Part shown: positions 26,293 through 56,033 of the stretch, piece by piece
How positions within the stretch are numbered: position 1 is the first letter of the stretch
How the letters are laid out: every line of letters begins with the position of its first letter
Assembly: GCA_964501575.1 (NCBI GenBank)
Contig: CAZCTP010000003.1
Coordinates: 10,384 to 74,383 of the forward strand
DNA from: an uncultured Thermodesulfobacteriota bacterium
GTDB lineage: Bacteria > Desulfobacterota > CAZCTP01
DNA length: 64,000 nucleotides
Direction: 5' to 3'
Program-made: the position numbers and the translations under genes
Notes under the pieces: model-generated
Databases searched by the model: none
Told to the model about the DNA's origin: nothing
What the model saw: only the letters and a program-made list of their open reading frames with translations

Positions 26293-27248
26293 TGAATATT
26301 GGTATATTCGAGTTTTATCTTAGAGCAATAGAAAGAATTCTTTTACCTCCCTATAAAGGTTCAACAATAAGAGGAGGATTTGGTAATGTTTTTAAAAAGG
26401 TTGTATGTGCAATAAAAAATAATAAAATGTGTAATAATTGTATACTTAGAGAGAGATGTATATATTCATATATATTTGAAACCAAGCCTCCTTCAGATAC
26501 GAAAATAATGCGAAAATATGAAAGAGTCCCACATCCATTTATTATAGAGCCTCCATATAAAGACAAAATAGAGTATAATATAGGAGAAATAATTGAATTC
26601 AATCTGATACTTATAGGGAGAGCTATAGATTATCTTCCGTATTTCATATATACCTTTGATGAGCTCGGAAAGATAGGAATTGGAAAGGGTAGGGGAAAAT
26701 ATGAACTGAAAAGTGTTAAGATTCAAAAGTCGATGATCAAAAGTGAAGAAATTTATTCATCTGATACAAAAATTCTTAAACCATTTAAAATAAATCCATT
26801 ATCTTTACAGCCTCTATCTCTTGGAAATGACTTCACCTATCTAAAGAATTTAACCCTTTATTTCCTTACACCAACCCGTATTATTCACAATGGCCATCTA
26901 ATATTTGATCTTGAATTTCATATATTTATAAGAAATTTATTAAGAAGGATTGCACTTATTTATTACTTCCATTGTGGAGGGAGCCCTTTCAAAATACGTT
27001 TTAAAGAGTTAATATATAAAGCAATGGAGATAAAGGTTAGAGATAGAAATCTAAAATGGTATGACTGGGAGAGATACTCAGCAAAGCAGGATATAAAAAT
27101 TAAAATGGGAGGATTTATAGGGAATATAACATTTGAAGGGGATATAAATAAGTTTATTCCTTATATAAATATTGGTGAATATATTCATGTAGGCAAAGGA
27201 ACAAGCTTTGGGCTTGGAAAGTATGAAGTAAGTTATGAAAATTTTTAA
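26292..27248 (+). CDS. Cas6-like RAMP-fold protein (two glycine-rich loops), not CRISPR-associated here
   Basis: 318 aa; C-terminal VGKGTSFGLGKYEV matches the Cas6 G-rich loop pattern GxGxxxxxGxG near the C-terminus; second internal loop GIGKGRGKYEL; N-terminal C-x7-C-x2-C-x5-C cluster. Confidence 0.35.
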   Translation: MNIGIFEFYLRAIERILLPPYKGSTIRGGFGNVFKKVVCAIKNNKMCNNCILRERCIYSYIFETKPPSDTKIMRKYERVPHPFIIEPPYKDKIEYNIGEIIEFNLILIGRAIDYLPYFIYTFDELGKIGIGKGRGKYELKSVKIQKSMIKSEEIYSSDTKILKPFKINPLSLQPLSLGNDFTYLKNLTLYFLTPTRIIHNGHLIFDLEFHIFIRNLLRRIALIYYFHCGGSPFKIRFKELIYKAMEIKVRDRNLKWYDWERYSAKQDIKIKMGGFIGNITFEGDINKFIPYINIGEYIHVGKGTSFGLGKYEVSYENF

Positions 27249-27352: not shown

Positions 27353-29329
27353 ATGGGAGTTTATCCTATTAATTTAAATGTATCTGTTGAATCCATATTA
27401 AAGGCAAAAGATAAATTTCTCAGAACAGGATTTATAGATAAAAGGGTTGTTCGTCAAATAATTGCGGATTCCTGGATCAGGTCTAGGGATTTTTACAATA
27501 TAGATCCGGAGAGTATAAATACCTCTACCTATTTAGATGATGCGGAATATAGGGAAAAATTGGATGAAAATGAATATCTTCTTAGATTTTCTATACCATT
27601 CTTAGAAAAGCTTATTCCATTTTTAAGAGAGGATGGGTATGTATTAGTATTATATTCAAAAGATGGTTATCATATATATCATTCAGGAGAGCTTTATCCT
27701 AAAGAGAAAAGAGTAATAAAGCTTTATGAAATTCTCAAGCGAGTATGTTGGAATGAGGAATATATAGGTACATCTCCATTTTCATTGGTAAAAAGACTAA
27801 GATCAGCGGTTCAGGTATTTGGACCGGAATATTATTGCAATATAATGTGTAACTTTTGTGGTTCTTTTGCACCTATTATAGTGGAAAACAATGAATTTAT
27901 AGGTGCAATAGGGATTACTTCCTATGGTAAGATACCTCACCCCCATACATTGGGTATAGCCATATCCGCTGCTTCAGCTATAGAGAATCATATAAAGCAT
28001 GAAAGAGTGAATGAAAGATTAAGATTTTATATTGAAAATATAAGGATTACTCTTAATTCCATGAAGGATGGTCTTGTGTGGACAGATGAAAATGGGAAGA
28101 TCATAGAGATAAATGAATCTGCTATAGAAATGCTCGGTATTATAGGAAAGGACGTAAAGGGTAAAAATGTTAAAGATATAGTTAATTCCTATCCTTCGTT
28201 ATCTGATTTAATAAAATCAGCGCTTTCTATGAAGAAAGTCCCTTCTGATGAGGAGATTATTGTGGAGTCTATTGATGGAATAAATAGACTCATTACTTCT
28301 ATAACGGCTGTTAAGATAGATGGTGGAGAATATATTGGTACGATTATATCATTAAAAAACATAAAGAGCATTAAAAAGATTGCTAAGAATATTGCATCTT
28401 ACGAAGCTAAGTTTTTACTCTCCGATATTGTAGGAAATAGTAAAACAATCAGAGAATTAAAGGAATATGTTTTACTTATTGCAAGGAGTGATTCTAATAT
28501 ATTAATTGAAGGTGAAAGCGGAACCGGTAAAGAGTTAATAGCTCATTGTATTCATAATTATAGTGATAGGAGTGAGGGGCCATTTGTTCCAATTAATTGC
28601 GCTGCGATTCCTCCGGAATTATTTGAAAGTATCCTTTTTGGATATGAGAAAGGGGCGTTTACGGGGGCCAAAGCAGAAGGAAGCCATGGAAAATTCGAGA
28701 TTGCCAATGGTGGGACACTATTCTTAGATGAAATAGGAGAACTCCCTTTTCATATGCAGTCAAAGCTATTGAGGGCAATATCAGAGGGGAGAATTGAGAA
28801 AATAGGTGGGAGAAGGCCAATAAATGTCGATGTAAGATTAATTTCTGCTACAAACAAATCCTTGCTGGATGAGATAGATAGTGGTAGATTTAGAAAAGAT
28901 TTATATTATAGAATAAATGTTTTTAATATAAAGACTCCTTCTCTTAGAGAGATTATAGATGATATTCCTCTATTAGTAGAATATTTTATAAAAAAATCTG
29001 GGAAGAAAATAAAATATATCTCAGAAGATTTTTATAATGTTCTTAAAGCATATTCATGGCCTGGTAATGTGAGGGAACTTGAAAATATTTTAGAGAGAGC
29101 TATTCATACTAGTAAAGATGGTATAATAGATATTAATTCCCTTCCTGAATATATTATAAACAACCAGGAATTCCTTTTACCTAAAAAGATTTTACCACTT
29201 TCAGAAATAGAGAGGAATGTTATAAAAATGGCTCTCGATATCTGTAAAGGCAATAAGAGTAAATCTGCAAAACTTTTAGGAATAGGAAGAGATACTCTAT
29301 ATAGGAAGATAAGGTCTTATCACATATAA
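27353..29329 (+). CDS. Sigma-54-dependent transcriptional activator (sensory N-terminal domain + PAS + AAA+ sigma54-interaction + HTH)
   Basis: 658 aa; GESGTGKE Walker A, GAFTGA sigma54-contact motif (EKGAFTGAK), C-terminal Fis-type HTH. Confidence 0.85.
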
Positions 29330-29517
29330 ATGTATTAATACAATACATTGTCTTATTATAGGATATTTTTATTTATAATTTTTAATCAGTATATGAGAAT
29401 ATTATTTTAATATTTTAGTTGTTTTATTTTTAATCTATTCTAATATTATGTCTTGAAATAATACATGCAAATTCATTCCTCTACACCTTTACCTTTGATT
29501 ATAGATACTTCTTATTA

Positions 29518-29533
29518 TGGCATGATAATTGCA
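29518..29533 (+). promoter_or_regulatory. Sigma-54 (-24/-12) promoter candidate TGGCAT-N5-TTGCA
   Basis: TGGCATgataaTTGCA: GG at 29519-29520 and GC at 29531-29532 with canonical 10-nt spacing. Located 200 bp downstream of a sigma-54 activator gene and about 17 nt upstream of the MoaD-like start. Confidence 0.5.
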
Positions 29534-29549
29534 TAATTATATTTTATAT

Positions 29550-29849
29550 ATGAAAATTAAGGTGAAGTTTTATGGAACAGTTAGAGATATAGTGAAGGAA
29601 AAAGAAGTTGAAATAGAGGGTAATGGAATATTAAACATTATGGACATTATAAATATTTTTATAGAGAGATATGGAAACAGGTTTAAAGAGAGAATTTTAA
29701 CTAATAATGGGAAGCTTCAGAGTTATGTAAGAATATTTATAAATGATGATCCTGTAGATTATAGAGAATTGGATAAGAAACTTATTAACAAAGGAGACTC
29801 AGAGATATTAATATATATATTACCAGCTCAAATGGGAGGATTATTATGA
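29550..29849 (+). CDS. MoaD/ThiS-family beta-grasp small protein with GG followed by two extra residues
   Basis: MKIKVKFYGTVRDIVKEKEVEIEG... aligns with the MoaD N-terminus (MIKVLFFAQVRE...); ends ...AQMGGLL. Stop overlaps the next gene start (ATGA). The upstream ATG at 29529 used by the ORF track would place the promoter inside the gene. Confidence 0.55.
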   Translation: MKIKVKFYGTVRDIVKEKEVEIEGNGILNIMDIINIFIERYGNRFKERILTNNGKLQSYVRIFINDDPVDYRELDKKLINKGDSEILIYILPAQMGGLL

Positions 29850-32413
29850 ATAATATAAAAGAGGATGTATGGATACCATCATCATGTAATATATGCTATG
29901 GAGGCTGTTCAATTTTAGCCCATAGAGTTAATGGGGTTTTAACAAAGATAGAAGGAAATCCAGAGAGTCCTATAGGTATGGGGAGATTATGTCCTAAGGG
30001 AGTATCCGGGATTATGATTTTATATGACCCTAATAGGGTGAATGTCCCATTAAAAAGGACAAATCCTGAGAAAGGATTTGGAGTTGATCCTAAATGGGTG
30101 GAAATTACCTGGGATGAAGCACTTGATACTATTGTAGAAAGGCTTAAAAAGATAAGGGAAGATGATCCAAGAAAGCTCTTCTTTATGGGTACCACAACAT
30201 GTGGGAATACAATGACATCTGGAGGGGTAACATTTATATCTGCCTTTGGTTCCCATAACTTCCTTGTTGGTGGAGGAGGTCTTCATTGTGGAAATGGTGC
30301 TCATCTTTTGAATGGTGTAATGCATGCATCATGGTCTTTAGTTCCTGATTTTGAATATTCTAACTATATTATATATTTTGGAGCAAGCAAAGGACATGCT
30401 GCAGGTCATGCAGCAAATTCTAATGCACAGAAGGCTGCTGATGCAAGGGCAAGGGGTGCAAAGTTTGTTGTTGTTGATCCAATGTGTAATTTTTCAGCAT
30501 CAAAGTCTGTTGAATGGATTCCTATTAAACCTGGGACTGATGGAGCATTCGCAATAGCAATTATAAATATACTTCTAAATGAGCTTAATATATATGATAG
30601 GGAGTATATAAAGAAACATACAAATGGTCCATATCTTATCAGACCCGATGGGTATTACATGAGAGATGAGAATGGAACTCCTTTAATATGGGATCCTGTT
30701 GATAATAGAGCAAAGCCTTACAATGACTTAAGTATAAAAGATCTTTCTATAAAGGGTGAATACGAAATTAGTGGAACTATCTGTAAACCAGGATTTCAGT
30801 TGCTTAAAGAACATGTTAGGAAATATACTCCTGAAGAGGTTTCAAGGATAACAACCATACCTCCAGATACAATAAGAAGAATAGCAAAAGAATTCGGAGA
30901 AGCAGCCCGAGTTGGAAGTAAAATAGTGATAGAAGGGGTAGAGCTTCCCTATAGACCTGCATGTGCAATATATTTTAGAGGAGCCCAGGGGCATAAGAAT
31001 TCTACATTAACGTGTATGGCAATAGAGCTTCTAAATCAGGTAGTTGGGGCTGCTGATGTCCCTGGTGGAGCACTCGGATTTACACCTGTTAGTTATGGCC
31101 ATCCAGATACCGGGAGACCCTATTTTGTTCCAAAGGAAGGGGAGGATGGAATAATGCTTACCGGAACATGGATGGTTCCTCATCTCCCATATCCACCTAA
31201 TGAACCAAGGGTCCCGGAGTCAATAGGGCTTGGAGAACTATTCCCTTTAGGTATGCTTACTCCTCTAACTGTTTCATCTGATCAGGAAGAGCTCTGGGAA
31301 AAGGTTGGACTTCCCTATAGGGTGGAGATGATAATCAATTTTGGATCAAACCCTATAATGAGTGTTGGTAATCCCGGGATAGTTGCTGAATCTATAAAGA
31401 GAATACCATTTATTGTATCCTTTGATATATTTCTTACAGAATTTTCACAATTTGCAGATATAGTTTTGCCTGATGGATGTTATCTTGAGAGGTTTGATCC
31501 GGGTCCAGCGTATCCACCAATTCTTAATCATCCAGCAGGTATGGGTGAATGGGGATGGCCGATAAGACAATCTGTTGTTGAACCGGCTTTTAAGAGAAGA
31601 AATTTTACAGAAGTTATGCTTGAAATTGCGGATAGGATAGGAATGAGAGACGATTTCTATGCTGTATTAAATCTCTTTTACGAACTTAAAGGGCCTTATA
31701 AACTTGATTCTAAAAGAGAATATACCTGGGAAGAGATATGCAACAATATTCTGAAGAATAATTTTGGGGAGGAGCATGATATAAATTGGTTCAGAAAGAA
31801 TGGTATTATAAAGTGGAAGAAAAGAGTTGAAGAGGTATATTGGAGGCCATTCTTAAATGTGAGGGTTCCAATATATTTTGAATATATTAGAAGAGTTGGT
31901 GATAAGGTTAAGGAAATTGCGGATAAATTGGATATTAAGCTCGATTATTCCTATTATCAGCCTTTACCAGATTACAGGCCCTGTGTATCACATCAGGTAG
32001 CTGATGAAAACTATGATTTATATGGATTCTATTACCGGGATGTGTTACACACAAACTCATTTACAATGGAAAATCCATGGCTTGATGAGGCTTCTTTAAT
32101 GAATCAGCATACCTATTATATCTCAATAAATTTGGATACCGGGAGAAAAAAAGGTATAAAGGATGGTGATACTATATTGGTAGAATCAACAAAGGGACGC
32201 AGGATAAAGGGTAAGGTAAAACTTATAGAGGGAATACATCCAGAGTGTCTTGGAATAGCTGCCTGTTCCGGTCATTGGAGTCCAAATATGCCTGTAGCTA
32301 AAGGTAAGGGGGTCCTTTTTAATGAACTCCTTGAGGTAGATCTTGAACATTCTGATCCAGCAAACCTTAATATGGATCTATGTGTTAAGGTGAGAATATA
32401 TAAGGAGGGTTAA
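29846..32413 (+). CDS. Molybdopterin (Mo/W-bisPGD) oxidoreductase catalytic subunit, PsrA/PhsA-like, no twin-arginine signal
   Basis: 855 aa; N-terminal FeS motif C-x2-C-x3-C...C (SSCNICYGGCS...GRLCPKG), MopB domains. N-terminus MNNIKEDVWIPSSC lacks an RR Tat motif. Confidence 0.85.
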   Translation: MNNIKEDVWIPSSCNICYGGCSILAHRVNGVLTKIEGNPESPIGMGRLCPKGVSGIMILYDPNRVNVPLKRTNPEKGFGVDPKWVEITWDEALDTIVERLKKIREDDPRKLFFMGTTTCGNTMTSGGVTFISAFGSHNFLVGGGGLHCGNGAHLLNGVMHASWSLVPDFEYSNYIIYFGASKGHAAGHAANSNAQKAADARARGAKFVVVDPMCNFSASKSVEWIPIKPGTDGAFAIAIINILLNELNIYDREYIKKHTNGPYLIRPDGYYMRDENGTPLIWDPVDNRAKPYNDLSIKDLSIKGEYEISGTICKPGFQLLKEHVRKYTPEEVSRITTIPPDTIRRIAKEFGEAARVGSKIVIEGVELPYRPACAIYFRGAQGHKNSTLTCMAIELLNQVVGAADVPGGALGFTPVSYGHPDTGRPYFVPKEGEDGIMLTGTWMVPHLPYPPNEPRVPESIGLGELFPLGMLTPLTVSSDQEELWEKVGLPYRVEMIINFGSNPIMSVGNPGIVAESIKRIPFIVSFDIFLTEFSQFADIVLPDGCYLERFDPGPAYPPILNHPAGMGEWGWPIRQSVVEPAFKRRNFTEVMLEIADRIGMRDDFYAVLNLFYELKGPYKLDSKREYTWEEICNNILKNNFGEEHDINWFRKNGIIKWKKRVEEVYWRPFLNVRVPIYFEYIRRVGDKVKEIADKLDIKLDYSYYQPLPDYRPCVSHQVADENYDLYGFYYRDVLHTNSFTMENPWLDEASLMNQHTYYISINLDTGRKKGIKDGDTILVESTKGRRIKGKVKLIEGIHPECLGIAACSGHWSPNMPVAKGKGVLFNELLEVDLEHSDPANLNMDLCVKVRIYKEG

Positions 32414-32414
32414 G

Positions 32415-33086
32415 ATGGTGAGATATGGGATGGTTATAGATCTCTTAAGATGCATAGGATGTTTCGGATGTCAGCTTGCATGCAAGGCTGAGAATGCCAC
32501 TCCAAAGGGAATTCTATGGGCAAGGGTTGAGGAGAAGGAGATAGGTAAATTTCCATCTGTAAGGAAAATATATCTTCCTCTGCTCTGTATGCATTGTAGA
32601 GAACCTGAGTGTGAAAAGGTATGTCCTACAAAGGCAACTACGAAAAGAGAAGATGGAATAGTGGATATTGATGATACAAAGTGCATAGGGTGTAGATATT
32701 GTATGACAGCATGTCCATATGGGTCAAGATATTTCATGGATGGAATTAAAAGTTATTTTGATAATGCTATTACTCCATATGAGGATTTTGGATATAAAAA
32801 GTGGCAAAAGGGTGTTACAGTTAAGTGCAATATGTGTAAGGATAGGATAGAGAACGGAATAAAGAGGGGGTTAAACCCTGGGATTGATAGAGCCGCAACC
32901 CCAGCCTGTGTGATAAACTGTATGAGTAAAGCGAGATACTTTGGAGATCTTGATGATCCAACGAGTGAAGTTTCAAGATTGATTGCAACTGGTCAGGCAT
33001 TTCAACTGCTTCCAGAGATAGGAACAGATCCTCAGGTTTATTATTTAGCCCCTGGAAGACTGATGCCTATACAATCACCACCATAG
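32415..33086 (+). CDS. 4Fe-4S ferredoxin-type electron-transfer subunit (PsrB/DmsB-like)
   Basis: 223 aa; four Cys cluster motifs (CIGCFGCQLAC, CMHCREPECEKVC, CIGCRYCMTAC, CNMCKDR...). Confidence 0.85.
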   Translation: MVRYGMVIDLLRCIGCFGCQLACKAENATPKGILWARVEEKEIGKFPSVRKIYLPLLCMHCREPECEKVCPTKATTKREDGIVDIDDTKCIGCRYCMTACPYGSRYFMDGIKSYFDNAITPYEDFGYKKWQKGVTVKCNMCKDRIENGIKRGLNPGIDRAATPACVINCMSKARYFGDLDDPTSEVSRLIATGQAFQLLPEIGTDPQVYYLAPGRLMPIQSPP

Positions 33087-33098
33087 GGAGGTTTTGAT

Positions 33099-33962
33099 AT
33101 GGATGTAACACAGACTATATGGAGATGGAAGGTAGCTTTTTATCTGTTTCTTGCAGGAGTTGGTGCCGGGAGTTATTTTATAGGAATTATTGAAGATTTT
33201 AGAGGGTATGATTCGGTGGCTACTATAGGTATCTGGCTCGGTGTTATCTTGGTATTTATATCTATCCTATTTTTACTCTGGGATCTTGGAAGACCTGAGA
33301 GATTTTATAAAGCAATAAATAATCCCAATTCATGGATCACAAAGGGTGTTTTTATACTCACTTTATTTGTTGTAGTGGGTATTGTTACTATTTTTATTGG
33401 TAATCCATTAAACTTTTATTTTAAAATTATTGGAATCATATTAGCTATAGCAATAGCTATATATACAGGGGTATTAATAGGAGTCGTTGCTGGAAGACCG
33501 ATATGGGGTAATTCAATGCTTCCTATACTTTTCTTAGTTTCAGCAATATCTACAGGAATAGGTGGAATAATGACTGTATATGTATTTAATATAGGAGACT
33601 TAAGTATTATTGATAGACTTGGATTGTTAGATATATTTCTGATAATATTAGAAGGGCTCGTTATATACCTATATCTTGTTATAATATTCTGGAGATTTCC
33701 AGAGAGTGTTAACATATTGATAAAGGGAAGACTCTCTCTCCAATTCTGGATAGGGCTTATATTTATAGGTCTTATTCTCCCATTGGTATTAGAATATATA
33801 AATCTATATACCGAAGTAGAGATAGTAAAGCTTCTTATTGCTTTTACAACTGGTATATCACTATTAATAGGTGGGTTTTTATTGAGAATTCTGATACTTG
33901 GAGCAGGGATTAGAAGACCTTTATATGTTGGGGTTCCCTTTTATGTACGTCCTGATGAGTGA
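33099..33962 (+). CDS. NrfD/PsrC-family integral membrane quinone-interacting subunit
   Basis: 287 aa, about 8 predicted TM helices, WRWKVAFYLFLAGVGAGSY N-terminal pattern typical of NrfD/PsrC. Confidence 0.75.
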   Translation: MDVTQTIWRWKVAFYLFLAGVGAGSYFIGIIEDFRGYDSVATIGIWLGVILVFISILFLLWDLGRPERFYKAINNPNSWITKGVFILTLFVVVGIVTIFIGNPLNFYFKIIGIILAIAIAIYTGVLIGVVAGRPIWGNSMLPILFLVSAISTGIGGIMTVYVFNIGDLSIIDRLGLLDIFLIILEGLVIYLYLVIIFWRFPESVNILIKGRLSLQFWIGLIFIGLILPLVLEYINLYTEVEIVKLLIAFTTGISLLIGGFLLRILILGAGIRRPLYVGVPFYVRPDE

Positions 33963-33973
33963 GGAGGGTAATT

Positions 33974-35239
33974 ATGCAGATTAGAAGGTTATATGAGAAA
34001 TTTTTATGGGTTGCAGAGCCAATAATATTAAAAATTGAGATTTTAAGAACAGGTTTAAAATTTACAGATGCTGCTAAGAATGCTCTAAAAGAGAGGGATG
34101 ATATATTATTTAAAGGATTCTGGCTATTTTCATATGATAGGGGAGAACCTGTTATGTATGGAGAGAAAATCCCTTTTCTTATAAGACTAAAAGATGAGAC
34201 TCCCATTCAGGTTAGAACAAATGAGAATTCTCCATATTATATAGATTATACTGATGGGAAATATATGCTTTGCGATCCTGATGGGCCACTTGAGGAAATT
34301 TTTTTTGATAGATCTCCAAAATATTATTCTAAAATTCTTTCAGATGGTACTCCAATGGCATCTATTGTCCAGGCAGTTGGCGATCTATTATTTGTAACAA
34401 TAAATAAATATTGCGAAATGTGGAAGGGTGGAAATCAGTGTCTGTTCTGTGATTTCAATGCCCAGACAAGAACTCAATCCCAAAAAGGGGAGGCTACAAT
34501 AGTAAGGAAAACTCCAGAAGTTATTGCAGATGTCTTGGAGATTGCATTCCATGAACCACAGTTCAGATATATGCTTATAACCGGCGGTTCAATTCTATCA
34601 TCTTATGAGGGTAAGAATGAAGTAGAGTATTATTGCGAACATTTAAATACTATAAGAAAGAGACTCAGGGTATGGTATCCAGCGGCATTTCAGATTGGTG
34701 CATTAAAAGAAGATGACTGGAAGAGAATATATGATACTGGAATTGGAACTGTTGAGCCAAATATAGAAGTGTGGGATAAAAGGCTATTTCAGATATTGTG
34801 TCCTGGTAAGGAGAAGGCGGTTGGATATGATGAATGGATAAGGAGAACTATTAAAGCTGTTGATATATTTGGACCTGGTAATGTTGTTCCAAACTTTGTA
34901 ACAGGGATTGAAATGGCAAAACCCTATGGATTTGAAAGATGGGAAGATGCTGTTAAATCTACATTGGATGGATTTGACTATTTGATGGATTATGGAGTCT
35001 TACCAAGGATGGATATGTGGTGTATAGAACCCAATTCTGTTCTTGCGAAATATAATCCAGAACCACCCCCTATAGAATATTATGTACATTTAGAAAAGGG
35101 ATATATGGAATTAAGGGAAAAGCATGACTTTATGACACTACAGGCGGGAATATCAAGATATTCTTATATCCATAACTGTGCTTGTGATTTCGCATACTAT
35201 CATGGGAATGGCCCCGGGTCAAAGAAGATACTTGGTTAA
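33974..35239 (+). CDS. Uncharacterised Cys-rich protein X1 (possible non-canonical radical SAM/TIM-barrel FeS enzyme); paralog of 62235..63512
   Basis: Strong SD GGAGGGT 6 nt before ATG 33974 (the track's GTG at 33959 overlaps the NrfD stop). Conserved with X2: FKGFWLFSYD.GEPVMYG, C-x9-C-x2-C (YCEMWKGGNQCLFCD), ITGG, EPNIEVW, ICPGK, MWCIE, C-terminal CxC. Confidence 0.5.
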   Translation: MQIRRLYEKFLWVAEPIILKIEILRTGLKFTDAAKNALKERDDILFKGFWLFSYDRGEPVMYGEKIPFLIRLKDETPIQVRTNENSPYYIDYTDGKYMLCDPDGPLEEIFFDRSPKYYSKILSDGTPMASIVQAVGDLLFVTINKYCEMWKGGNQCLFCDFNAQTRTQSQKGEATIVRKTPEVIADVLEIAFHEPQFRYMLITGGSILSSYEGKNEVEYYCEHLNTIRKRLRVWYPAAFQIGALKEDDWKRIYDTGIGTVEPNIEVWDKRLFQILCPGKEKAVGYDEWIRRTIKAVDIFGPGNVVPNFVTGIEMAKPYGFERWEDAVKSTLDGFDYLMDYGVLPRMDMWCIEPNSVLAKYNPEPPPIEYYVHLEKGYMELREKHDFMTLQAGISRYSYIHNCACDFAYYHGNGPGSKKILG

Positions 35240-35296: not shown

Positions 35297-35710
35297 ATGG
35301 CTAATATGACAAAAGAGGTAATGGATATGTTTAATAATCCAGCTGCTTCAAAAGTATTGGCTACAGTAGATTCAAATGGGAAGGTTCACGCAGTCCCCCA
35401 TGGATCTATAGTAGCTATCGGTCCTGATAGAGTAGCATTTGCAAAACTTGTTAAGGGGAAGACATTGGAGAATCTTGAATCTACTAAAAATGTTTCTGTA
35501 ACAGCCTTTGTTCCATCACAACAACCAGGAGAGTCTATAGGTTATCAGATTAAGGGGATATTTGAAGGACTTCAGAATTCCGGTCCACTATTTGATAACT
35601 ACCAATCAAAGATGCCACCTAATATGAAACTGGCAGGGGTTGGAACAATAAAGGTTGAAGAAGTCTATGAGGTAAGTCCTGGACCAAACTGCGGTAAGAG
35701 GCTTGCCTGA
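35297..35710 (+). CDS. PNPOx-like FMN-binding split-barrel family protein (paralog of 11738..12235)
   Basis: 137 aa; shares the ...VLATVDSNGKVHAVPHGS...VAFAKL...YQIKG pattern with the housekeeping-region paralog. Confidence 0.45.
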   Translation: MANMTKEVMDMFNNPAASKVLATVDSNGKVHAVPHGSIVAIGPDRVAFAKLVKGKTLENLESTKNVSVTAFVPSQQPGESIGYQIKGIFEGLQNSGPLFDNYQSKMPPNMKLAGVGTIKVEEVYEVSPGPNCGKRLA

Positions 35711-35736: not shown

Positions 35737-38208
35737 ATGGCAAGAGAAGCAGTAGTGAGGAAGATAGTAACTCCAAGAGAAGTAAAAGGAGAACCTTCAA
35801 CTCCAAGATCAAGGATTGTAAGAGAAAGATATTTGAAGGCAGAACCAAGAGTTGATCCTGAAAGAGCATATCTATATACCAAATCATGGAAAGAGACAGA
35901 AGGAGAGCCTGTTGAGATAAGAAGAGGGAAATCATTTAAGTATGTGATGTCAAATCTAACTCCGGTAATAAGAGAAGGAGAATTGATTGTTGGTAATACA
36001 ACAAGGTATGTTCGTGGTTCATCCCCTTATCCTGAATTTTCAGTAAAATGGATGAAAAATGTGCTGAAGCAGGTACTTGATGAGGATGAGAAGTATGTTG
36101 ATGTCGGAACATATACAAAAGAGGCAAATTTTGGTGTATACAAAATAAGTACAGAAGACCTTAATATGCTCAAGGAATGTATTGAATACTGGGATGGGAG
36201 ATCATTGGACTGTCTTGCAAGAAAGTATATAGGTATGACGGATTGGAAGGATGAATTCGAAGCTGGTGAATCTGCTCAATGGTTTACAAGGCTTGGTTCA
36301 GAAATTCCAGAGGGTAGATTGGTGCTTGATTATGGAAAAGTCTTAAAATTGGGATTTAGGGGTATAATAGATGAGGCTAAAAACTGGATGAAATTACTCG
36401 AGGTAGTTACAATGGATGATTTCAGAAAACTTGCTTTCTATCAGGGAGTTATTAATGCATTAGAAGGAGTAATCCAATTTGCAAAGAACTATGCAAATGA
36501 GGCAAGAAGATTATCAAAGGAGGAGAAAAACAGGGATAGAGAAAAAGAACTTCTTGAGATTGCAGAGAGATGTGAATGGGTATCTGAGAACCCTCCAAGA
36601 GGGTTTAAAGATGCTTTACAGCTATACTGGTTTACAGTTTTATCCGGTCAGATTGAAAGTTTTTCATTCGGATTCTCTCCTGGAAGATTCGATCAATATA
36701 TGTATCCCTTCTATAGAAAAGATATAGACGAAGGTAAGATTACAAATAAGGAGGTCCTTGAACTACTTGAGCTATTAAGAGTTAAGTTTACAGAGATTCA
36801 GAGGGTCTGTTCGAGGTTCTGGGAAGGTCATGGTTCCGGTAATCTCTACCAGAATATGATGCTTGGAGGGATGAAAGCCGATGGCGAGGATGCAAGTAAT
36901 GAATTATCTATTCTTGTTCTTCAGGCAGCTATAAATCAGCAGACAACCCAGCCAACTCTATCGGTTAGATGGAATGATAAACTTAATGAGGAATTCCTGT
37001 TAAAGGCTATAGAACTTGTAAAAACCGGGGTCGGTATGCCAGCATGGTTTAATGATGAAGTGGCAATCCAACATTTCTTGGGCTATACTGGCTGCACATT
37101 AGAGGAGGCAAGAGATTATGCAATGGGTGGATGTACAGAAATGACACTTCCTGGAAAGAGATACGGTATTGTTACACCTGGTTTTGTAAATCAGGCGAAA
37201 TGTCTTGAGCTTGCTCTAAATAATGGTGTAAATCCTATAGATGGGAAGCAGCTTGGGCCGAAAACAGGCAAAATTAATAGCTTTGAAGATCTGCACAGAG
37301 CATTTCTCATACAGATGCAAAGGGCTATTGAGCTTATGTGTAAAGGACATGCAATATTAATGGGAGTTCATAGAGAGCTTGTTCCTCTTATATTCCATTC
37401 AGCAGTTATGGATGACTGCCTTGAAAAGGGTTTAAGCATGGATAATGGGGGAATAAGATATAAGGATTCGCCAACAATACTCTCTGTGGGGATGATAAAT
37501 GTTGCAAACTCTATGGCTGCTATAAAAAAGTGTGTATTTGAAGATAAAACATTCACGTTGAATGAGCTTAAAAAGGCATTGATTTCTAACTTTAAAGGAG
37601 ATGGATACGCAAGTGTTCACAGGAAGCTTCTTGATGCCCCTAAGTTTGGTAATGATGATGATTATGTAGACTTAATAGCAAAGGAGTTATACGAAGAGTT
37701 TGCAGAGGAAGTTTATAAATATAAGAACTATTTTGGTGTTCCTTATACCCCTGGAGCTCTTTCAATAAGCAGTCATCCACACTTTGGCAGGGTATGCGGT
37801 GCAAGCCCTGATGGAAGATTGGCAGGTGTCTCTCTATGCGATGGAGCTGTATCTGCATTTCCAGGAACAGATAAAAATGGACCAACATCCCTTGTTAAAT
37901 CCGCAACCAAGGTTGATTCCATTCCCCATATGGTGGTCCTCTTTAATATGAAATTCCATCCAACAGCTTTAAAGGGAATAGAGGGGTCAAAGAAGCTATT
38001 ATCTCTGATTAAGACATATTTTGATAGGGGTGGATGGCATGTTCAATTCAATGTAGTTGATACAAAGATGCTGAGGGATGCCCAGAGGAATCCTGAAAAA
38101 TACAGGGATCTTATTGTAAGGGTAGCAGGATTCAGTGCCTACTGGGTTGAGTTATCAAAGGCGGTTCAGGACGAGGTAATAGCAAGAACCGAGTATGAGA
38201 CATGTTAA
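35737..38208 (+). CDS. Glycyl radical enzyme GRE1 (PFL superfamily), unknown specificity
   Basis: 823 aa; C-terminal glycyl radical motif [13 protein letters not shown] (Gly codon 38128-38130); catalytic Cys loop MGGCTEM (Cys codon 37132-37134) with Glu two residues after Cys, as in GRE eliminases/decarboxylases. Confidence 0.9.
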   Translation: MAREAVVRKIVTPREVKGEPSTPRSRIVRERYLKAEPRVDPERAYLYTKSWKETEGEPVEIRRGKSFKYVMSNLTPVIREGELIVGNTTRYVRGSSPYPEFSVKWMKNVLKQVLDEDEKYVDVGTYTKEANFGVYKISTEDLNMLKECIEYWDGRSLDCLARKYIGMTDWKDEFEAGESAQWFTRLGSEIPEGRLVLDYGKVLKLGFRGIIDEAKNWMKLLEVVTMDDFRKLAFYQGVINALEGVIQFAKNYANEARRLSKEEKNRDREKELLEIAERCEWVSENPPRGFKDALQLYWFTVLSGQIESFSFGFSPGRFDQYMYPFYRKDIDEGKITNKEVLELLELLRVKFTEIQRVCSRFWEGHGSGNLYQNMMLGGMKADGEDASNELSILVLQAAINQQTTQPTLSVRWNDKLNEEFLLKAIELVKTGVGMPAWFNDEVAIQHFLGYTGCTLEEARDYAMGGCTEMTLPGKRYGIVTPGFVNQAKCLELALNNGVNPIDGKQLGPKTGKINSFEDLHRAFLIQMQRAIELMCKGHAILMGVHRELVPLIFHSAVMDDCLEKGLSMDNGGIRYKDSPTILSVGMINVANSMAAIKKCVFEDKTFTLNELKKALISNFKGDGYASVHRKLLDAPKFGNDDDYVDLIAKELYEEFAEEVYKYKNYFGVPYTPGALSISSHPHFGRVCGASPDGRLAGVSLCDGAVSAFPGTDKNGPTSLVKSATKVDSIPHMVVLFNMKFHPTALKGIEGSKKLLSLIKTYFDRGGWHVQFNVVDTKMLRDAQRNPEKYRDLIVRVAGFSAYWVELSKAVQDEVIARTEYETC

Positions 38209-38318: not shown

Positions 38319-39245
38319 ATGGTTGATAATGGAGAGAGAGCTCTTATATTTAATATTCAGAGATATTCTGTCCATGATGGTCCTGGAATAAGAACTACAG
38401 TATTTATGAAGGGATGCCCATTAAGATGTATATGGTGTCAGAATCCAGAAGGTATAAAGGGAAGGGTAGAGATAGGTTATAGCAAAAGATTGTGTTGTAG
38501 AGACTATCTCTGTTTAAAGGCGTGTCCAAATGGAGCAATAACTCTCTTAAAAAACGGAGAGATAAGGATAAATAGGAATATATGTTATCTATGTGAAAAT
38601 AGAAATTGTTTGTCAGTATGTAATACAAGAGCTATAGAACCGATAGGGAGATACATGACAGTTGATGAATTATTAAAAGAGGTTATGAAAGACAGCCTCT
38701 TTTATAGAAATTCGGATGACGGTGGAGTTACCCTATCCGGTGGTGAATCAACAACACAATGGAGATTTGTATTGGAGTTTTTTAAGAAATGTAAAGAGAG
38801 GGGGGTCCATACTGTTCTTGATACATGTGGATATGTTAAATGGGAAAGACTGTTAAATATATTGGAATATACGGATATAATTCTTTACGATATAAAGCAT
38901 ATGAATAGTAAGGAACATAAAAGACTTACCGGGGTTTCAAATGAACTTATTTTAAAGAATGCAGAGAATATTGCTAAGTTAAAGGATAAAAAGGTTATTA
39001 TAAGATATCCTGTTATCCCCGGGTATAATGATTCTATAGAAAACATAGATGCTTTAGGAGAATTTATGAATAAAATAGGTTTAAAGGAGATATGCCTTTT
39101 ACCCTATCACAGATTGGGCTCAGGTAAATATGAGAAAATAGGAAGGAAATATAGATTAGACCATGTTTTGGCTCCAAGTGAATCACAATTAAAGGGAATA
39201 AAGGATATTTTTGATAGAAGAGGGTTTATCTGTTCTATACAATGA
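38319..39245 (+). CDS. Glycyl radical enzyme activating enzyme (radical SAM, with two-ferredoxin insert)
   Basis: 308 aa; CX3CX2C in GCPLRCIWCQN, then two ferredoxin-like Cys motifs (CCRDYLCLKACP, CYLCENRNCLSVCN) as in BssD/CutD/GD-AE-type activases. Confidence 0.9.
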   Translation: MVDNGERALIFNIQRYSVHDGPGIRTTVFMKGCPLRCIWCQNPEGIKGRVEIGYSKRLCCRDYLCLKACPNGAITLLKNGEIRINRNICYLCENRNCLSVCNTRAIEPIGRYMTVDELLKEVMKDSLFYRNSDDGGVTLSGGESTTQWRFVLEFFKKCKERGVHTVLDTCGYVKWERLLNILEYTDIILYDIKHMNSKEHKRLTGVSNELILKNAENIAKLKDKKVIIRYPVIPGYNDSIENIDALGEFMNKIGLKEICLLPYHRLGSGKYEKIGRKYRLDHVLAPSESQLKGIKDIFDRRGFICSIQ

Positions 39246-39802
39246 ATCTTAAAAGGATTTTAAAACTTGATCCGGATAGAATAAGTTTAGGGACAAATAT
39301 AGCCCTTATAGGAGCAATAAGATTTGCAGTGAAAAATAAAAGTAGTGAAGTATACCCTGAACATATTATATATTCCCTTTTTACCATGGAGGATGCTGTT
39401 CTGCCTTTACTGATATCCAATCTTGGAGGCGATCCAGAAGAGGTTATTAGTAGTATAGAAAAGAGAATTAAAGATATTCAGGATAAAAAAAGAGTAGCTG
39501 ATAGAATTGAGAATGTTAAATTGTCTTTCAAATTAAGAAGGATAATAAATGAGGCTCTTAAGGAATCAGAGATGAGAGGAGAGCTTTTGTGTAATGATCA
39601 TCTTATGGTCGCTCTTTTTAAAGAAAAGGGTGGATTATTTTCGGAGATCCTTTTAAGTAATGGTATTAAGGAGTTTGATGTAAAACCCTTCAATTGTGGA
39701 GGATGTCCCAACGTATGTGAAGATATTATTGAATATATTGTAAACGGTGAGGTAATTGGAAGATATGGTGGGATATGTGGAACATGGAGGTTTAACCTAT
39801 GA
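39242..39802 (+). CDS. Stand-alone Clp N-terminal-domain (double Clp_N repeat) protein with Cys-rich C-terminal tail
   Basis: 186 aa; two Clp_N repeats (PEHIIYSLFTMEDAVLPLLISNLGGDPEEV and NDHLMVALFKEKGGLFSEILLSNGIKEF); tail C-x2-C-x3-C...C. ATGA overlap with the AE gene. Confidence 0.55.
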   Translation: MNLKRILKLDPDRISLGTNIALIGAIRFAVKNKSSEVYPEHIIYSLFTMEDAVLPLLISNLGGDPEEVISSIEKRIKDIQDKKRVADRIENVKLSFKLRRIINEALKESEMRGELLCNDHLMVALFKEKGGLFSEILLSNGIKEFDVKPFNCGGCPNVCEDIIEYIVNGEVIGRYGGICGTWRFNL

Positions 39803-42035: not shown

Positions 42036-42050
42036 TAAGAAGGATAGAAA

Positions 42051-45370: not shown

Positions 45371-45459
45371 GGGAAGTCAATTAAGAATTATGAATTAGGA
45401 ATTATGAATTATGAGTTATTATTAAGCAGGAAGTAAAAAATATAAAGAAGGAGGTTTAT

Positions 45460-47525: not shown

Positions 47526-47609
47526 ATATAAGGAATAAATGGAAGGGTTTTTTTGTTTGTAGGAAAGAGTATTAACTTAACTCTTAAACCTTTAATATAA
47601 GGAGGTAAA

Positions 47610-47998: not shown

Positions 47999-48053
47999 AG
48001 AGGCAATAGGTAAGAGGTGATAGGTAAGAAATTATGAGATGAGGAAATAAAGA

Positions 48054-50345: not shown

Positions 50346-50375
50346 CCGGGTTGAAAATATAAAAGGGAGTTTAGA

Positions 50376-51842: not shown

Positions 51843-51883
51843 TTAATTTTTTAAAATATTATGAATTAATAAGGGGGTATAAA

Positions 51884-56029: not shown

Positions 56030-56033
56030 GAAT

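What the first reader, a model, noticed from the sequence alone, without database searches (positions are those of the whole stretch)
29550..33962. MoaD-like beta-grasp gene followed by a PsrABC-type Mo/W-bisPGD complex whose catalytic subunit lacks a Tat signal
The PsrA-like subunit starts MNNIKEDVWIPSSCNICYGGC with no twin-arginine motif, and the FeS subunit has no signal either, yet a NrfD/PsrC-type membrane anchor follows. This implies a cytoplasm-facing, quinone-linked molybdo/tungstoenzyme, unusual for Psr/Phs/Ttr-type complexes. The small MoaD/ThiS-like protein ends GG-LL, so it would need C-terminal processing to act as a sulfur carrier or ubiquitin-like modifier. Its position directly upstream of a Mo enzyme suggests a dedicated cofactor-sulfuration or tagging role.
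Basis: partly seen in the sequence, partly recalled or inferred. Interest (0 to 1): 0.65.

Follow-up and report, generated by a model that had tools for sequence, protein, structure and literature searches.

The report
Inward-facing PadBCD-type molybdoenzyme with MoaD-like partner
This is a membrane-bound molybdenum or tungsten enzyme that faces the cell interior and belongs to the large but little-studied phenylacetyl-CoA oxidoreductase (PadBCD)-like family; the small ubiquitin-like gene in front of it turns out to be a regular, apparently undescribed companion of that family.

Summary
At 29550-33962 four tightly packed genes encode a 99-aa MoaD/SAMP1-fold protein ending GG-LL, an 855-aa Mo/W-bisPGD subunit, a four-cluster ferredoxin and an 8-helix NrfD anchor. 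None has a signal peptide.

It is not a Psr/Phs/Ttr enzyme. It belongs to a family of more than 2300 proteins (55-66% identical) that submitters call "related to phenylacetyl-CoA:acceptor oxidoreductase" (PadBCD).
- Lack of a Tat signal is family-wide: 112 of 113 N-termini have no RR.
- The anchor's Lys/Arg distribution is the reverse of PsrC and E. coli NrfD in 43 of 43 members, which independently supports an inward-facing complex.
- Inward-facing NrfD-anchored molybdoenzymes are already known (PadBCD, SoeABC).

New here: the MoaD-like gene sits directly upstream of 46 of 80 family catalytic genes. Four of four MoaD-like proteins looked up independently sit upstream of MopB-FeS-NrfD. 117 of 118 end exactly in GG, and MoaE is never nearby. 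The window's LL tail and a 74% relative's LYG tail are lineage exceptions.

The module opens a nine-gene sigma-54 operon that also carries a glycyl-radical enzyme. That combination was seen in no related locus.

Verdict: a new member of a known kind, with a moderately interesting conserved ubiquitin-like partner.

The parts
27353..29329 (+). Sigma-54-dependent transcriptional activator (658 aa) with a PAS sensor, an AAA+ sigma-54 interaction domain and a Fis-type HTH. Presumed regulator of the operon downstream.
   Evidence: Pfam Sigma54_activat 229 bits, PAS and HTH_8. Best NCBIfam matches are PrdR and DhaR, both below cutoff. A weak MimR_N hit is on record.
29330..29466 (.). Two ATGT-N11-ACAT palindromes (29330-29348 and 29448-29466), about 190 and 70 nt upstream of the -24 element of the promoter. 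Possible activator binding sites; not tested.
   Evidence: Read from the sequence. Inverted repeat I2. The region is very AT-rich, so chance cannot be excluded.
29518..29533 (+). Sigma-54 (-24/-12) promoter TGGCATgataaTTGCA. The predicted transcript start is about 29544, leaving a leader of about 6 nt before the first ATG.
   Evidence: It is the only match to TGGYAY-N5-TTGCW in 64 kb on both strands; 0.11 expected by chance. It lies directly downstream of the activator gene. The transcript start is inferred.
29550..29849 (+). MoaD/SAMP1-fold beta-grasp protein, 99 aa, 11.6 kDa, ending MGG-LL. Its GGA GGA codons form the Shine-Dalgarno sequence of the next gene, and its TGA stop overlaps that gene's ATG.
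   Evidence: TIGR01687 50.1 bits against a cutoff of 49.5; SAMP1 model 38.8 bits against 60. AlphaFold2 pLDDT 81.7. Best Foldseek matches are SAMP1 3po0 (TM 0.77/0.84), P. furiosus MoaD-like 1vjk, Urm1, MOCS2A, CysO and MoaD. Conserved synteny.
29846..32413 (+). Catalytic Mo/W-bisPGD subunit, 855 aa, 96.1 kDa. It has an N-terminal CX2CX3CX27C [4Fe-4S] motif, a probable metal ligand Cys148 in the invariant motif GGG[LIV]HCGNGAH, and no Tat signal.
   Evidence: Pfam and NCBIfam results. More than 2300 homologues, the best 120 being 55-66% identical at full coverage. Alignment to the PsrA, ArrA and acetylene hydratase ligand region. Conservation and N-terminus statistics.
32415..33086 (+). Electron-transfer subunit, 223 aa, 25.0 kDa, with 16 Cys in four [4Fe-4S] motifs. 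No signal peptide.
   Evidence: Pfam Fer4_11. NCBIfam ArrB, DsrO, QrcC and TtrB models, all below cutoff, align from query residue 2-4 to profile positions 37-43 where those proteins carry their own Tat signal. Cys count.
33099..33962 (+). NrfD/PsrC-type membrane anchor, 287 aa, eight helices. Both termini and loops 2-3, 4-5 and 6-7 are predicted cytoplasmic, which is inverted relative to PsrC.
   Evidence: Pfam NrfD 109 bits. Lys+Arg counts are 13 against 4 in the window protein and average 15.5 against 1.2 in 43 of 43 family members. E. coli NrfD gives 5 against 7. The first half of PsrC gives 3 against 6. PsrC termini lie at the P side (PMC8076601).
33974..35239 (+). Variant radical-SAM protein, 421 aa, with a CX8CX2C motif. 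Same operon, 11 nt after the NrfD gene.
   Evidence: NCBIfam NF045502 variant_rSAM 218.9 bits against a cutoff of 125. A GGAGG sits before the ATG at 33974. A paralogue at 62217-63512 is 54% identical.
35297..35710 (+). PNPOx-like small flavin-binding protein, 137 aa.
   Evidence: Pfam PNPOx_N 28.6 bits against a cutoff of 28.1.
35737..38208 (+). Glycyl radical enzyme, 823 aa, substrate unknown.
   Evidence: Pfam PFL-like 653 bits and Gly_radical 102 bits. The best NCBIfam match is indoleacetate decarboxylase, 870 bits against a cutoff of 1100. The best PDB match is B12-independent glycerol dehydratase, 590 bits.
38319..39245 (+). Glycyl-radical-enzyme activating enzyme, 308 aa.
   Evidence: TIGR02494 343.7 bits against a cutoff of 174.
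39242..39802 (+). Clp_N-domain protein, 186 aa. Last gene of the putative operon; its start overlaps the activase stop.
   Evidence: Pfam Clp_N 40.5 bits. A 310-nt gap follows.

Best explanation
Genes 29550-33962 encode a PadBCD-type membrane-bound molybdenum (or tungsten) bis-pyranopterin enzyme whose catalytic and iron-sulfur subunits sit on the cytoplasmic face of the membrane.

Shown by the analyses here:
- The alpha subunit has an FS0 [4Fe-4S] motif and an invariant His-Cys motif that aligns with the metal-ligand region of PsrA, ArrA and acetylene hydratase.
- The beta subunit has four cluster motifs.
- The gamma subunit is an 8-helix NrfD protein whose charge distribution is the reverse of PsrC and NrfD.
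- No subunit has an export signal.

Inferred:
- By analogy with Thauera aromatica phenylacetyl-CoA:acceptor oxidoreductase, the enzyme uses water to oxidise an activated C-H of a cytoplasmic organic substrate, probably an aryl- or alkyl-acetyl-CoA or a related compound.
[quoted passage not shown] The step would then be electroneutral unless the anchor pumps protons.
- The 99-aa MoaD/SAMP1-fold protein is a dedicated partner of this enzyme family. Its C-terminal Gly-Gly, exposed here only after loss of the LL tail, is most likely adenylated and thiocarboxylated by a housekeeping MoeB-type E1. It would then serve maturation of the cofactor of its own enzyme, either dithiolene sulfur together with MoaE or a terminal sulfido ligand.
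- The four genes open a sigma-54 operon of nine genes controlled by the adjacent PAS-domain activator. The operon also holds a variant radical-SAM protein, a small flavoprotein and a glycyl radical enzyme with its activase. It lies in a larger anaerobic catabolic island.
For: Family placement:
- More than 2300 homologues. The best 120 are 848-886 aa (except one N-terminally truncated 821-aa sequence), 55-66% identical, at 96-100% coverage. Several are named 'molybdenum enzyme, large subunit, related to phenylacetyl-CoA:acceptor oxidoreductase'.
- All Psr, Phs, Ttr, Arr, Dms, Fdh and Nap equivalog models score far below cutoff.
- Subunit masses are 96.1, 25.0 and 32.1 kDa, against 93, 27 and 26 kDa for the purified T. 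aromatica enzyme (my recollection of Rhee and Fuchs 1999).

Orientation:
- No usable upstream start exists.
- 112 of 113 family N-termini lack RR. They are 10-34 aa long and hydrophilic.
- Lys+Arg bias in the anchor is 15.5 against 1.2 in 43 of 43 members, opposite to E. coli NrfD and PsrC.
- PsrC termini are at the P side, and SoeC is expected to be inverted for the same reason (PMC8076601).
- Related loci carry cytoplasmic uptake systems and CoA-activating enzymes: an ABC transporter in L083, TctC-type binding proteins, a CoA ligase whose AMP-binding plus AMP-binding_C_2 domain pair I recall as typical of PaaK (phenylacetate-CoA ligase) in L091, and a family III CoA-transferase in L056.

MoaD-like partner:
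- Fold confirmed.
- Present 3-235 nt upstream on the same strand of 46 of 80 family MopB genes.
- Four of four independently retrieved MoaD-like proteins lie 7 nt upstream of MopB-FeS-NrfD.
- 117 of 118 end exactly in GG.
- MoaE was found in none of about 85 loci and MoeB in two.
- Several copies occur in one genome, each next to its own MopB.

Operon: a unique sigma-54 promoter; gene overlaps or gaps of 1-110 nt.
Against: - No sequence of a biochemically characterised PadB was available, so family membership rests on submitter names, architecture and subunit sizes.
- The window has no phenylglyoxylate oxidoreductase (padEFGHI) or phenylacetate-CoA ligase (padJ) gene, so the substrate is not established.
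- The direction of catalysis, dehydrogenase or reductase, is inferred.
- The window anchor alone has a modest Lys/Arg bias once loop length is allowed for (13 in 73 residues against 4 in 40). The strong signal comes from the family.
- The window's MoaD-like protein does not end in GG, and no protease, E1 or MoaE is nearby.
- 34 of 80 family MopB genes have no MoaD-like gene upstream. These include the Acidobacteria group whose FeS and NrfD subunits are closest to the window's.
- As I recall, the purified T. aromatica enzyme was reported with three subunits, not four.
Confidence: 0.7

Rival explanations
1. The MoaD-like protein does no C-terminal chemistry. It is a non-covalent accessory subunit or an enzyme-specific assembly chaperone for the Tat-less catalytic subunit, filling the role that TorD, DmsD or NarJ play for other molybdoenzymes. 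On this reading the GG-LL tail needs no processing.
For: Each MopB paralogue in one genome has its own MoaD-like copy, which a generic sulfur carrier would not need. MoaE is never nearby and MoeB almost never. The window protein and its 74% relative carry different tails after GG. The two genes are translationally coupled through an ATGA overlap.
Against: 117 of 118 family members end exactly in GG, and both glycines are invariant in the alignments. That is hard to explain unless the free C-terminal carboxylate matters. As I recall, the purified T. aromatica enzyme showed only three subunits.
Confidence: 0.25
2. The complex is a SoeABC-type cytoplasmic sulfite:quinone oxidoreductase. It would detoxify or use sulfite released by a sulfonate-cleaving glycyl radical enzyme in the same operon.
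For: SoeABC has the same architecture (MopB, FeS and NrfD), lacks a Tat signal and is predicted to face the N side with an inverted anchor (PMC8076601). A glycyl radical enzyme is co-transcribed, and sulfopropanediol dehydratase models give 524-538 bits.
Against: The glycyl radical enzyme matches indoleacetate decarboxylase (870 bits) and glycerol or diol dehydratases much better than sulfonate lyases. Homologues are named PadB-related. The family has up to six or more paralogues per genome and four in tandem in L057, which suits varied organic substrates rather than one inorganic ion. Neighbours are UbiD, CoA ligase or transferase, Rieske dioxygenase and a 4-hydroxybenzoyl-CoA reductase-like protein. 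No SoeA sequence was available for a direct comparison.
Confidence: 0.06
3. It is an ordinary periplasmic Psr/Phs-type reductase. The signal is missing because of a mis-called start, or the enzyme is exported by hitch-hiking on another Tat substrate.
For: The closest solved structure is T. thermophilus polysulfide (thiosulfate) reductase PsrA, and the best NCBIfam model is PhsA. The frame upstream of the ATG happens to read QRRLRD.
Against: No start codon can include that RR, and no hydrophobic region follows it. A strong Shine-Dalgarno precedes the called ATG. 120 homologues start at the same conserved (K)EDxWIPS motif. Neither the FeS nor the NrfD subunit has a signal. The anchor's charge bias is inverted in 43 of 43 members. 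PhsA scores 249 bits against a cutoff of 694.
Confidence: 0.02
4. The same inward-facing complex works in the opposite direction, as a quinol-dependent reductase of a cytoplasmic substrate, for example a product of the glycyl radical enzyme, rather than as a dehydrogenase.
For: Most NrfD-anchored relatives (Psr, Phs, Ttr, Arr, Dms) are reductases (PMC8076601). Nothing in the sequence fixes the direction.
Against: The only characterised enzyme the family is named after is a dehydrogenase, and so is the other inward-facing example, SoeABC (PMC8076601). Neighbours in related loci are catabolic uptake and activation genes.
Confidence: 0.12

Closest known systems
Phenylacetyl-CoA:acceptor oxidoreductase PadBCD of Thauera aromatica, Azoarcus evansii and Aromatoleum aromaticum EbN1 (Rhee and Fuchs 1999; pathway summarised in PMC5109826)
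   Same: Three-subunit membrane-bound Mo-FeS enzyme with very similar subunit sizes. The substrate is a CoA ester, so the active site must face the cytoplasm. There is no Tat signal and the acceptor is a quinone. Homologues 60% identical to the window protein are annotated as related to it.
   Different: The window lacks the pathway partners padEFGHI and padJ, so the substrate is probably different. Here the module is fused into a sigma-54 operon with a glycyl radical enzyme, a variant radical-SAM protein and a flavoprotein. Whether the classical pad operon has the MoaD-like gene could not be checked. No direct sequence comparison with a characterised PadB was possible.
SoeABC sulfite:quinone oxidoreductase (Allochromatium vinosum, Aquifex aeolicus)
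   Same: MopB, FeS and NrfD architecture, no Tat signal, a catalytic dimer predicted at the N side and an anchor predicted to be inverted (PMC8076601).
   Different: SoeABC has an inorganic substrate and a sulfur-oxidation gene context. The window family is annotated as PadB-like, is highly paralogous and sits in organic-acid catabolic clusters. Sequence relationship not tested.
Polysulfide/thiosulfate reductase PsrABC (T. thermophilus, PDB 2vpw) and PhsABC, TtrABC, ArrAB
   Same: Closest solved structures and profile matches. Same FS0 motif and Cys ligand region, same four-cluster subunit and the same 8-helix NrfD fold.
   Different: Those enzymes carry Tat signals and face the periplasm, and PsrC has both termini at the P side. 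The window proteins score at a third or less of each equivalog cutoff, and the anchor's charge bias is reversed.
AOR-linked MoaD genes (Iyer, Burroughs and Aravind 2006, PMC1779556)
   Same: A distinct MoaD-family gene strictly adjacent to the gene of a pterin-dependent oxidoreductase, separate from the Moco biosynthesis operon. It was proposed to make pterin cofactor specifically for that enzyme.
   Different: The partner there is a tungsten aldehyde:ferredoxin oxidoreductase, an unrelated fold, and those clusters often include MoeB, MoaE or MoaA. Here the partner is a MopB-family enzyme, and MoaE and MoeB are essentially absent from the neighbourhood.
QbsE/QbsD and PdtH/PdtG sulfur-carrier systems; SAMP1 of Haloferax volcanii
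   Same: MoaD/ThiS-fold proteins. From memory, QbsE is made with two extra residues after GG that a JAMM protease removes. SAMP1 is the closest structural match to the window protein.
   Different: No JAMM protease or E1 is encoded near the window gene. Almost all relatives of the window protein need no trimming.

Membership tests
PadBCD-like (phenylacetyl-CoA:acceptor oxidoreductase-like) Mo-bisPGD enzymes | Three subunits: a MopB catalytic subunit of about 93 kDa, an FeS subunit of about 27 kDa and a membrane subunit of about 26 kDa | tested here: met
   96.1, 25.0 and 32.1 kDa, encoded by adjacent genes. The reference sizes are from my memory of Rhee and Fuchs 1999.
PadBCD-like (phenylacetyl-CoA:acceptor oxidoreductase-like) Mo-bisPGD enzymes | Sequence orthology to a biochemically characterised PadB | not testable with these tools
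   No Thauera or Aromatoleum PadB sequence could be retrieved. Indirect support only: homologues 60% identical carry the submitter name 'related to phenylacetyl-CoA:acceptor oxidoreductase'.
PadBCD-like (phenylacetyl-CoA:acceptor oxidoreductase-like) Mo-bisPGD enzymes | No export signal; active site in the cytoplasm | tested here: met
   signals; anchor topology.
PadBCD-like (phenylacetyl-CoA:acceptor oxidoreductase-like) Mo-bisPGD enzymes | Pathway context: phenylglyoxylate oxidoreductase padEFGHI and phenylacetate-CoA ligase padJ nearby | tested here: not met
   None of the window ORFs scanned, nearly all of those of at least 100 aa, has such a family assignment. The module is therefore a family member but probably not the phenylacetate enzyme itself.
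Psr/Phs/Ttr/Arr periplasmic complex iron-sulfur molybdoenzymes | Twin-arginine signal on the catalytic subunit (or on the FeS subunit) | tested here: not met
Psr/Phs/Ttr/Arr periplasmic complex iron-sulfur molybdoenzymes | Score at or above the NCBIfam equivalog cutoff | tested here: not met
   PhsA 248.7 against 694, ArrA 148.7 against 1600, TtrA 75.4 against 1750, DmsA/YnfE 149.8 against 777.7.
Psr/Phs/Ttr/Arr periplasmic complex iron-sulfur molybdoenzymes | NrfD anchor with termini and the FeS-docking loops at the P (periplasmic) side | tested here: not met
   Positive-inside analysis places those regions in the cytoplasm, with Lys+Arg 13 against 4 in the window and 15.5 against 1.2 across the family. 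This is a prediction, not an experiment.
SoeABC sulfite:quinone oxidoreductase | Sequence orthology of the catalytic subunit to SoeA | not tested
   No SoeA sequence or model was available. No Soe model appeared among the NCBIfam hits.
MoaD/ThiS/SAMP/Urm1 beta-grasp sulfur carriers | Beta-grasp fold of the MoaD type | tested here: met
   AlphaFold2 pLDDT 81.7. Foldseek top hits are SAMP1, MoaD-like 1vjk, Urm1, MOCS2A, CysO and MoaD at probability 1.00. TIGR01687 scores 50.1 against 49.5.
MoaD/ThiS/SAMP/Urm1 beta-grasp sulfur carriers | Gly-Gly at the extreme C-terminus | tested here: not met
   The window protein ends GGLL and its 74% relative ends GGLYG. By contrast 117 of 118 family members end in GG. 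The window protein would need trimming to meet the criterion.
MoaD/ThiS/SAMP/Urm1 beta-grasp sulfur carriers | Functional partners (MoaE, or a MoeB/ThiF-type E1) encoded nearby | tested here: not met
   MoaE in 0 and MoeB in 2 of about 85 loci, and none in the window. Partners may be encoded elsewhere in the genome.
MoaD/ThiS/SAMP/Urm1 beta-grasp sulfur carriers | C-terminal thiocarboxylate or adenylate formed in vivo | not testable with these tools
   Requires mass spectrometry of the native protein.

The most novel reading that the evidence does not exclude
The MoaD/SAMP1-like protein defines an undescribed ubiquitin-like system dedicated to PadB-type molybdoenzymes and conserved across many phyla. 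Each enzyme paralogue brings its own Gly-Gly carrier. The activated C-terminus would install a sulfur ligand on, or covalently mark, its cognate catalytic subunit during maturation. In the window's lineage the carrier is made as a precursor (GG-LL or GG-LYG) that must be trimmed, which adds a control step. In addition, the fusion of this module with a glycyl radical enzyme in one sigma-54 operon could mark a new anaerobic route in which a radical enzyme and a water-dependent Mo hydroxylase act on the same hydrophobic substrate.
Probability: 0.2. Interest if true: 0.7.

Novelty: new member of a known kind. Interest (0 to 1): 0.4.

Why it matters
- PadBCD-like enzymes form a very large family in soil, groundwater and sediment bacteria. 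More than 2300 relatives were found, often with several per genome. As far as I know only one member has been purified, and none appeared among the PDB matches to the catalytic subunit or to the anchor profile. They are candidates for oxygen-independent hydroxylation of organic acids.
- The anchor is consistently inverted. That gives a clean natural example of an NrfD module working at the cytoplasmic face, which bears on current models of how these subunits conserve energy.
- A Gly-Gly beta-grasp protein that Pfam does not recognise travels with the enzyme. This points to an enzyme-specific maturation step that would have to be supplied for heterologous expression.
- For this window alone the result is mostly a correct annotation. 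The finding is real, but the cytoplasmic orientation is the family norm rather than an oddity.

Tried and rejected
- An apparent MoaD-MopB fusion ORF in L017 (980 aa) is an artefact of a run of N in the scaffold.
- My first transmembrane-segment script gave overlapping segments, and the consensus-hydropathy version merged helix pairs. Both were replaced by hand-defined helices mapped onto a family alignment.
- phmmer of the NrfD protein against the PDB found nothing. A profile was needed to reach PsrC.
- A single-sequence search with the MoaD-like protein found only itself and one relative. An alignment query was needed.
- tblastn of the MopB against PLSDB plasmids found no match at 1e-50.
- Literature searches for PadBCD, PadB, padA and phenylacetyl-CoA dehydrogenase returned only passing mentions. 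I found no description of the small upstream gene or of the enzyme's topology. Two genome papers that looked promising for Tat-less Psr complexes described only Tat-bearing ones.
- A look-up of the second radical-SAM protein, intended to extend the contig downstream, failed because the called start differs. The upstream extension showed thiamine genes (ThiH, ThiS, ThiG, ThiE, ThiC) and a multihaem cytochrome, but no Pfam family of an E1, JAMM or MoaE type was on record for its genes.
- The organism could not be named. The window is from JGI metagenome 3300038380, and no taxon was attached to any exact match.
- The housekeeping-MoaD reading was rejected. E. coli MoaD scores 1.7 bits against the family profile, and no Moco biosynthesis genes accompany the gene.

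Full report
**What is there**

On the + strand between 29550 and 33962 lie four tightly packed genes.
- A 99-aa protein ending MGGLL.
- An 855-aa molybdopterin oxidoreductase starting MNNIKEDVWIPSSCNICYGGC.
- A 223-aa ferredoxin with 16 cysteines in four cluster motifs.
- A 287-aa NrfD-family membrane protein.

Pfam and NCBIfam confirm each assignment. The small protein just passes the TIGR01687 MoaD-family cutoff, at 50.1 bits against 49.5. The stop codon of the small gene overlaps the ATG of the catalytic gene (ATGA), and its two glycine codons, GGA GGA, form that gene's Shine-Dalgarno sequence. The next genes follow after 1 and 12 nt, each with a GGAGG.

**No export signal**

- The frame upstream of the catalytic ATG is closed 20 codons back and has no ATG, GTG or TTG.
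- It reads QRRLRD right after the stop, but nothing can initiate before that RR, and no hydrophobic stretch follows it.
- The ferredoxin and anchor frames are closed 8 and 5 codons upstream.
- Profiles and structures of periplasmic relatives align from their residue 37-53 onto query residue 2-12. The query therefore lacks the leader they carry.
- This is not a local annotation problem. In 113 homologues with an intact FS0 motif, the segment before the first cluster cysteine is 10-34 aa (median 20) and hydrophilic. It ends in a conserved (K)EDxWIPS motif and holds RR in one case only.

**Which family**

- The catalytic subunit has more than 2300 relatives. The best 120 are 55-66% identical at 96-100% coverage, and all but one N-terminally truncated sequence (821 aa) are 848-886 aa long. 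They come from Chloroflexota, Methylomirabilota/Rokubacteria, Acidobacteriota, Tectomicrobia, Desulfobacterota-like MAGs, Burkholderiales (including Aromatoleum and Sterolibacterium) and Rhodospirillales.
- Several are deposited as 'molybdenum enzyme, large subunit, related to phenylacetyl-CoA:acceptor oxidoreductase'.
- Every named equivalog scores far below its cutoff. The closest solved structures are PsrA, ArrA and acetylene hydratase, matched mainly over the first 260 residues.
- The subunit masses of 96.1, 25.0 and 32.1 kDa match what I recall for the purified Thauera aromatica enzyme (93, 27 and 26 kDa; Rhee and Fuchs 1999, cited in PMC13416013).
- That enzyme oxidises a CoA thioester, so it must work in the cytoplasm. 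The Pad pathway is summarised in PMC5109826.
- I therefore file the module as PadBCD-like, not Psr/Phs/Ttr-like. I could not compare it directly with a characterised PadB.
- An invariant motif GGG[LIV]-H-C-G-N-G-A-H holds Cys148. This residue aligns with, or one residue from, the metal-ligand cysteine of ArrA, PsrA and acetylene hydratase as I recall their positions.

**Independent test of orientation**

I aligned the window anchor with 42 anchors from related loci and with E. coli NrfD and HybB. I then counted Lys+Arg in the regions between eight hand-defined helices.

| Protein | N-terminus, loops 2-3, 4-5, 6-7, C-terminus | Other four loops |
|---|---|---|
| Window anchor | 13 | 4 |
| Family mean (43 of 43 in this direction) | 15.5 | 1.2 |
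| E. coli NrfD (partner is periplasmic) | 5 | 7 |
| T. thermophilus PsrC, first half | 3 | 6 |

A published review states that PsrC has both termini at the P side. It also states that SoeC should be inverted because SoeAB face the N side (PMC8076601). So the PadD-type anchor is predicted to be flipped, with the side that docks the ferredoxin in the cytoplasm.

For the window protein alone the bias is modest once loop lengths are considered. The family signal is what carries the argument. The same review shows that the general idea of an inward-facing NrfD-anchored molybdoenzyme is already established.

**The small protein**

- An AlphaFold2 model built on 34 sequences has pLDDT 81.7, with only the last six residues disordered. 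Its best structural matches are SAMP1 (TM 0.77/0.84), a P. furiosus MoaD-like protein, Urm1, human MOCS2A, CysO and MoaD.
- A profile built from related loci finds such an ORF 3-235 nt upstream, on the same strand, of 46 of 80 family catalytic genes that have enough upstream sequence.
- The reverse test also holds. Four proteins retrieved with the MoaD-like profile and looked up on long contigs each lie 7 nt upstream of MopB-FeS-NrfD.
- None of these proteins has a precomputed Pfam hit. E. coli MoaD scores only 1.7 bits against the profile.
- MoaE occurs in none of about 85 loci, MoeB in two, and a weak MoaA-like radical-SAM match in one.
- One MAG carries at least four such pairs.
- 117 of 118 retrieved members end exactly in GG, and both glycines are invariant.
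- The window protein (GG-LL), its 74% relative (GG-LYG) and two others (L009, L007) are the exceptions.
- The closest precedent is the set of MoaD genes strictly linked to tungsten aldehyde oxidoreductases, proposed to make pterin for that enzyme (PMC1779556).
- I found no description of the MopB-linked set in the searchable literature. That library misses most subscription journals.

**How it most likely works**

Shown: the architecture, the cofactor motifs, the absence of signals, the inverted charge bias and the conserved synteny.

Inferred:
- The enzyme oxidises a cytoplasmic organic substrate with water at the Mo or W centre. It passes electrons through FS0 and four ferredoxin clusters to a quinone site in the first helix bundle of the anchor, which here lies near the cytoplasmic face.
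- The small protein is an enzyme-specific maturation factor whose C-terminal glycine is activated by a MoeB-type E1 encoded elsewhere.
- The strict terminal GG argues for chemistry at the C-terminus. The one-copy-per-paralogue pattern and the absence of MoaE and MoeB argue for a specific physical partnership. Both may be true.
- In the window the LL tail would have to be removed first. From memory, a similar two-residue tail on QbsE is removed by a JAMM protease. No such protease, E1 or MoaE is encoded among the window ORFs of at least 100 aa that were scanned, and none was on record for the 10 kb fetched upstream.

**Context**

- A single sigma-54 promoter match, TGGCATgataaTTGCA at 29518-29533, lies 16 nt before the first ATG; 0.11 matches are expected by chance. 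It is directly downstream of a PAS-domain sigma-54 activator gene.
- Nine genes follow with overlaps or gaps of 1-110 nt: the four above, a variant radical-SAM protein, a PNPOx-like protein, a glycyl radical enzyme, its activase and a Clp_N protein.
- None of the related loci examined has the radical-SAM, PNPOx or glycyl-radical genes next to the molybdoenzyme. This combination is specific to the window's lineage.
- Related loci instead carry uptake systems, CoA ligases or transferases, UbiD decarboxylases and Rieske dioxygenases. That fits catabolism of aromatic or other organic acids.
- The substrate here is unknown. The glycyl radical enzyme is nearest to indoleacetate decarboxylase by profile (870 bits against a cutoff of 1100) and to glycerol dehydratase among solved structures.

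**Verdict**

The inference of a cytoplasm-facing, quinone-linked enzyme is supported by two independent lines of evidence. The framing as an aberrant Psr complex is wrong, because this is a normal member of the PadBCD-like family and inward orientation has precedents. The part that adds something is the conserved, Pfam-invisible Gly-Gly beta-grasp partner and its unusual tailed form here. Novelty: a new member of a known kind. Interest: moderate.

Noticed in passing
window 51884-54385 and 62217-63512: A second glycyl radical enzyme (53% identical to the one at 35737-38208) and a second variant radical-SAM protein (54% identical to 33974-35239; both have CX8CX2C instead of CX3CX2C). The paired duplication suggests the two protein types work together.
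   Followed up: partly
window 40533-46716 and 59728-62233: Two sets of DUF1302, DUF1329/LolA-like and (in the first set only) BNR/Ycf48-like and MMPL/RND genes. This gene set may be linked to transport of hydrophobic compounds across the cell envelope (my recollection, not checked). They flank the catabolic genes.
   Followed up: no
window 46743-59168: More catabolic genes: an SDR; a 4-hydroxybenzoyl-CoA reductase alpha-like protein (767 bits against a cutoff of 995) with no small-subunit genes of at least 100 aa beside it; three CrtI/amine-oxidase-like flavoproteins; a UbiD decarboxylase; and a YCII protein. UbiD also recurs next to family MopB genes in L056, L089 and L090.
   Followed up: partly
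window 29518-29550: The -12 element of the sigma-54 promoter ends 16 nt before the ATG of the MoaD-like gene. The predicted leader is therefore only about 6 nt and has no Shine-Dalgarno, whereas the next three genes have GGAGG.
   Followed up: no
window 29330-29348 and 29448-29466: Two ATGT-N11-ACAT palindromes upstream of the sigma-54 promoter, possibly activator binding sites. The region is very AT-rich.
   Followed up: no
window 25243-27248: A radical-SAM plus helix-hairpin-helix protein sits directly before a Cas6-like protein. The first matches the 'DNA modification/repair radical SAM' model TIGR03916 at 336 bits, just under its cutoff of 343.5. The second is 318 aa, with Pfam CRISPR_Cas6 at 72 bits. 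No other cas genes were found among the ORFs scanned.
   Followed up: no
L057 102-10559; also L036, L039-L041, L043, L046, L051, L053-L060: Four family MopB genes lie in tandem in one Rhodospirillaceae contig. Many family MopB genes have no FeS or NrfD gene within 8 kb, which suggests that several catalytic paralogues share one electron-transfer module.
   Followed up: no
P0021, P0055, P0056, P0070, P0103 (family MopB homologues): A subset has lost the second cysteine of the N-terminal FS0 motif, for example CGMTYSSC and CSMSYSMC in place of CxxCxxxC. These may lack that cluster.
   Followed up: no
L008, L011, L015, L016, L019, L021, L025, L081 (Acidobacteriota loci): The FeS and NrfD subunits closest to the window's (60-66% and 42-44% identical) belong to loci with no detectable MoaD-like gene upstream of the MopB. 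The MoaD-like gene and the electron-transfer subunits therefore do not share one history.
   Followed up: partly
window 1-64000: G+C is 0.28-0.36 in the housekeeping part up to 30 kb and 0.35-0.39 from 30 kb onward, with strong positive GC skew from about 8 kb to the end of the window. The catabolic island may have a different origin from its surroundings.
   Followed up: no
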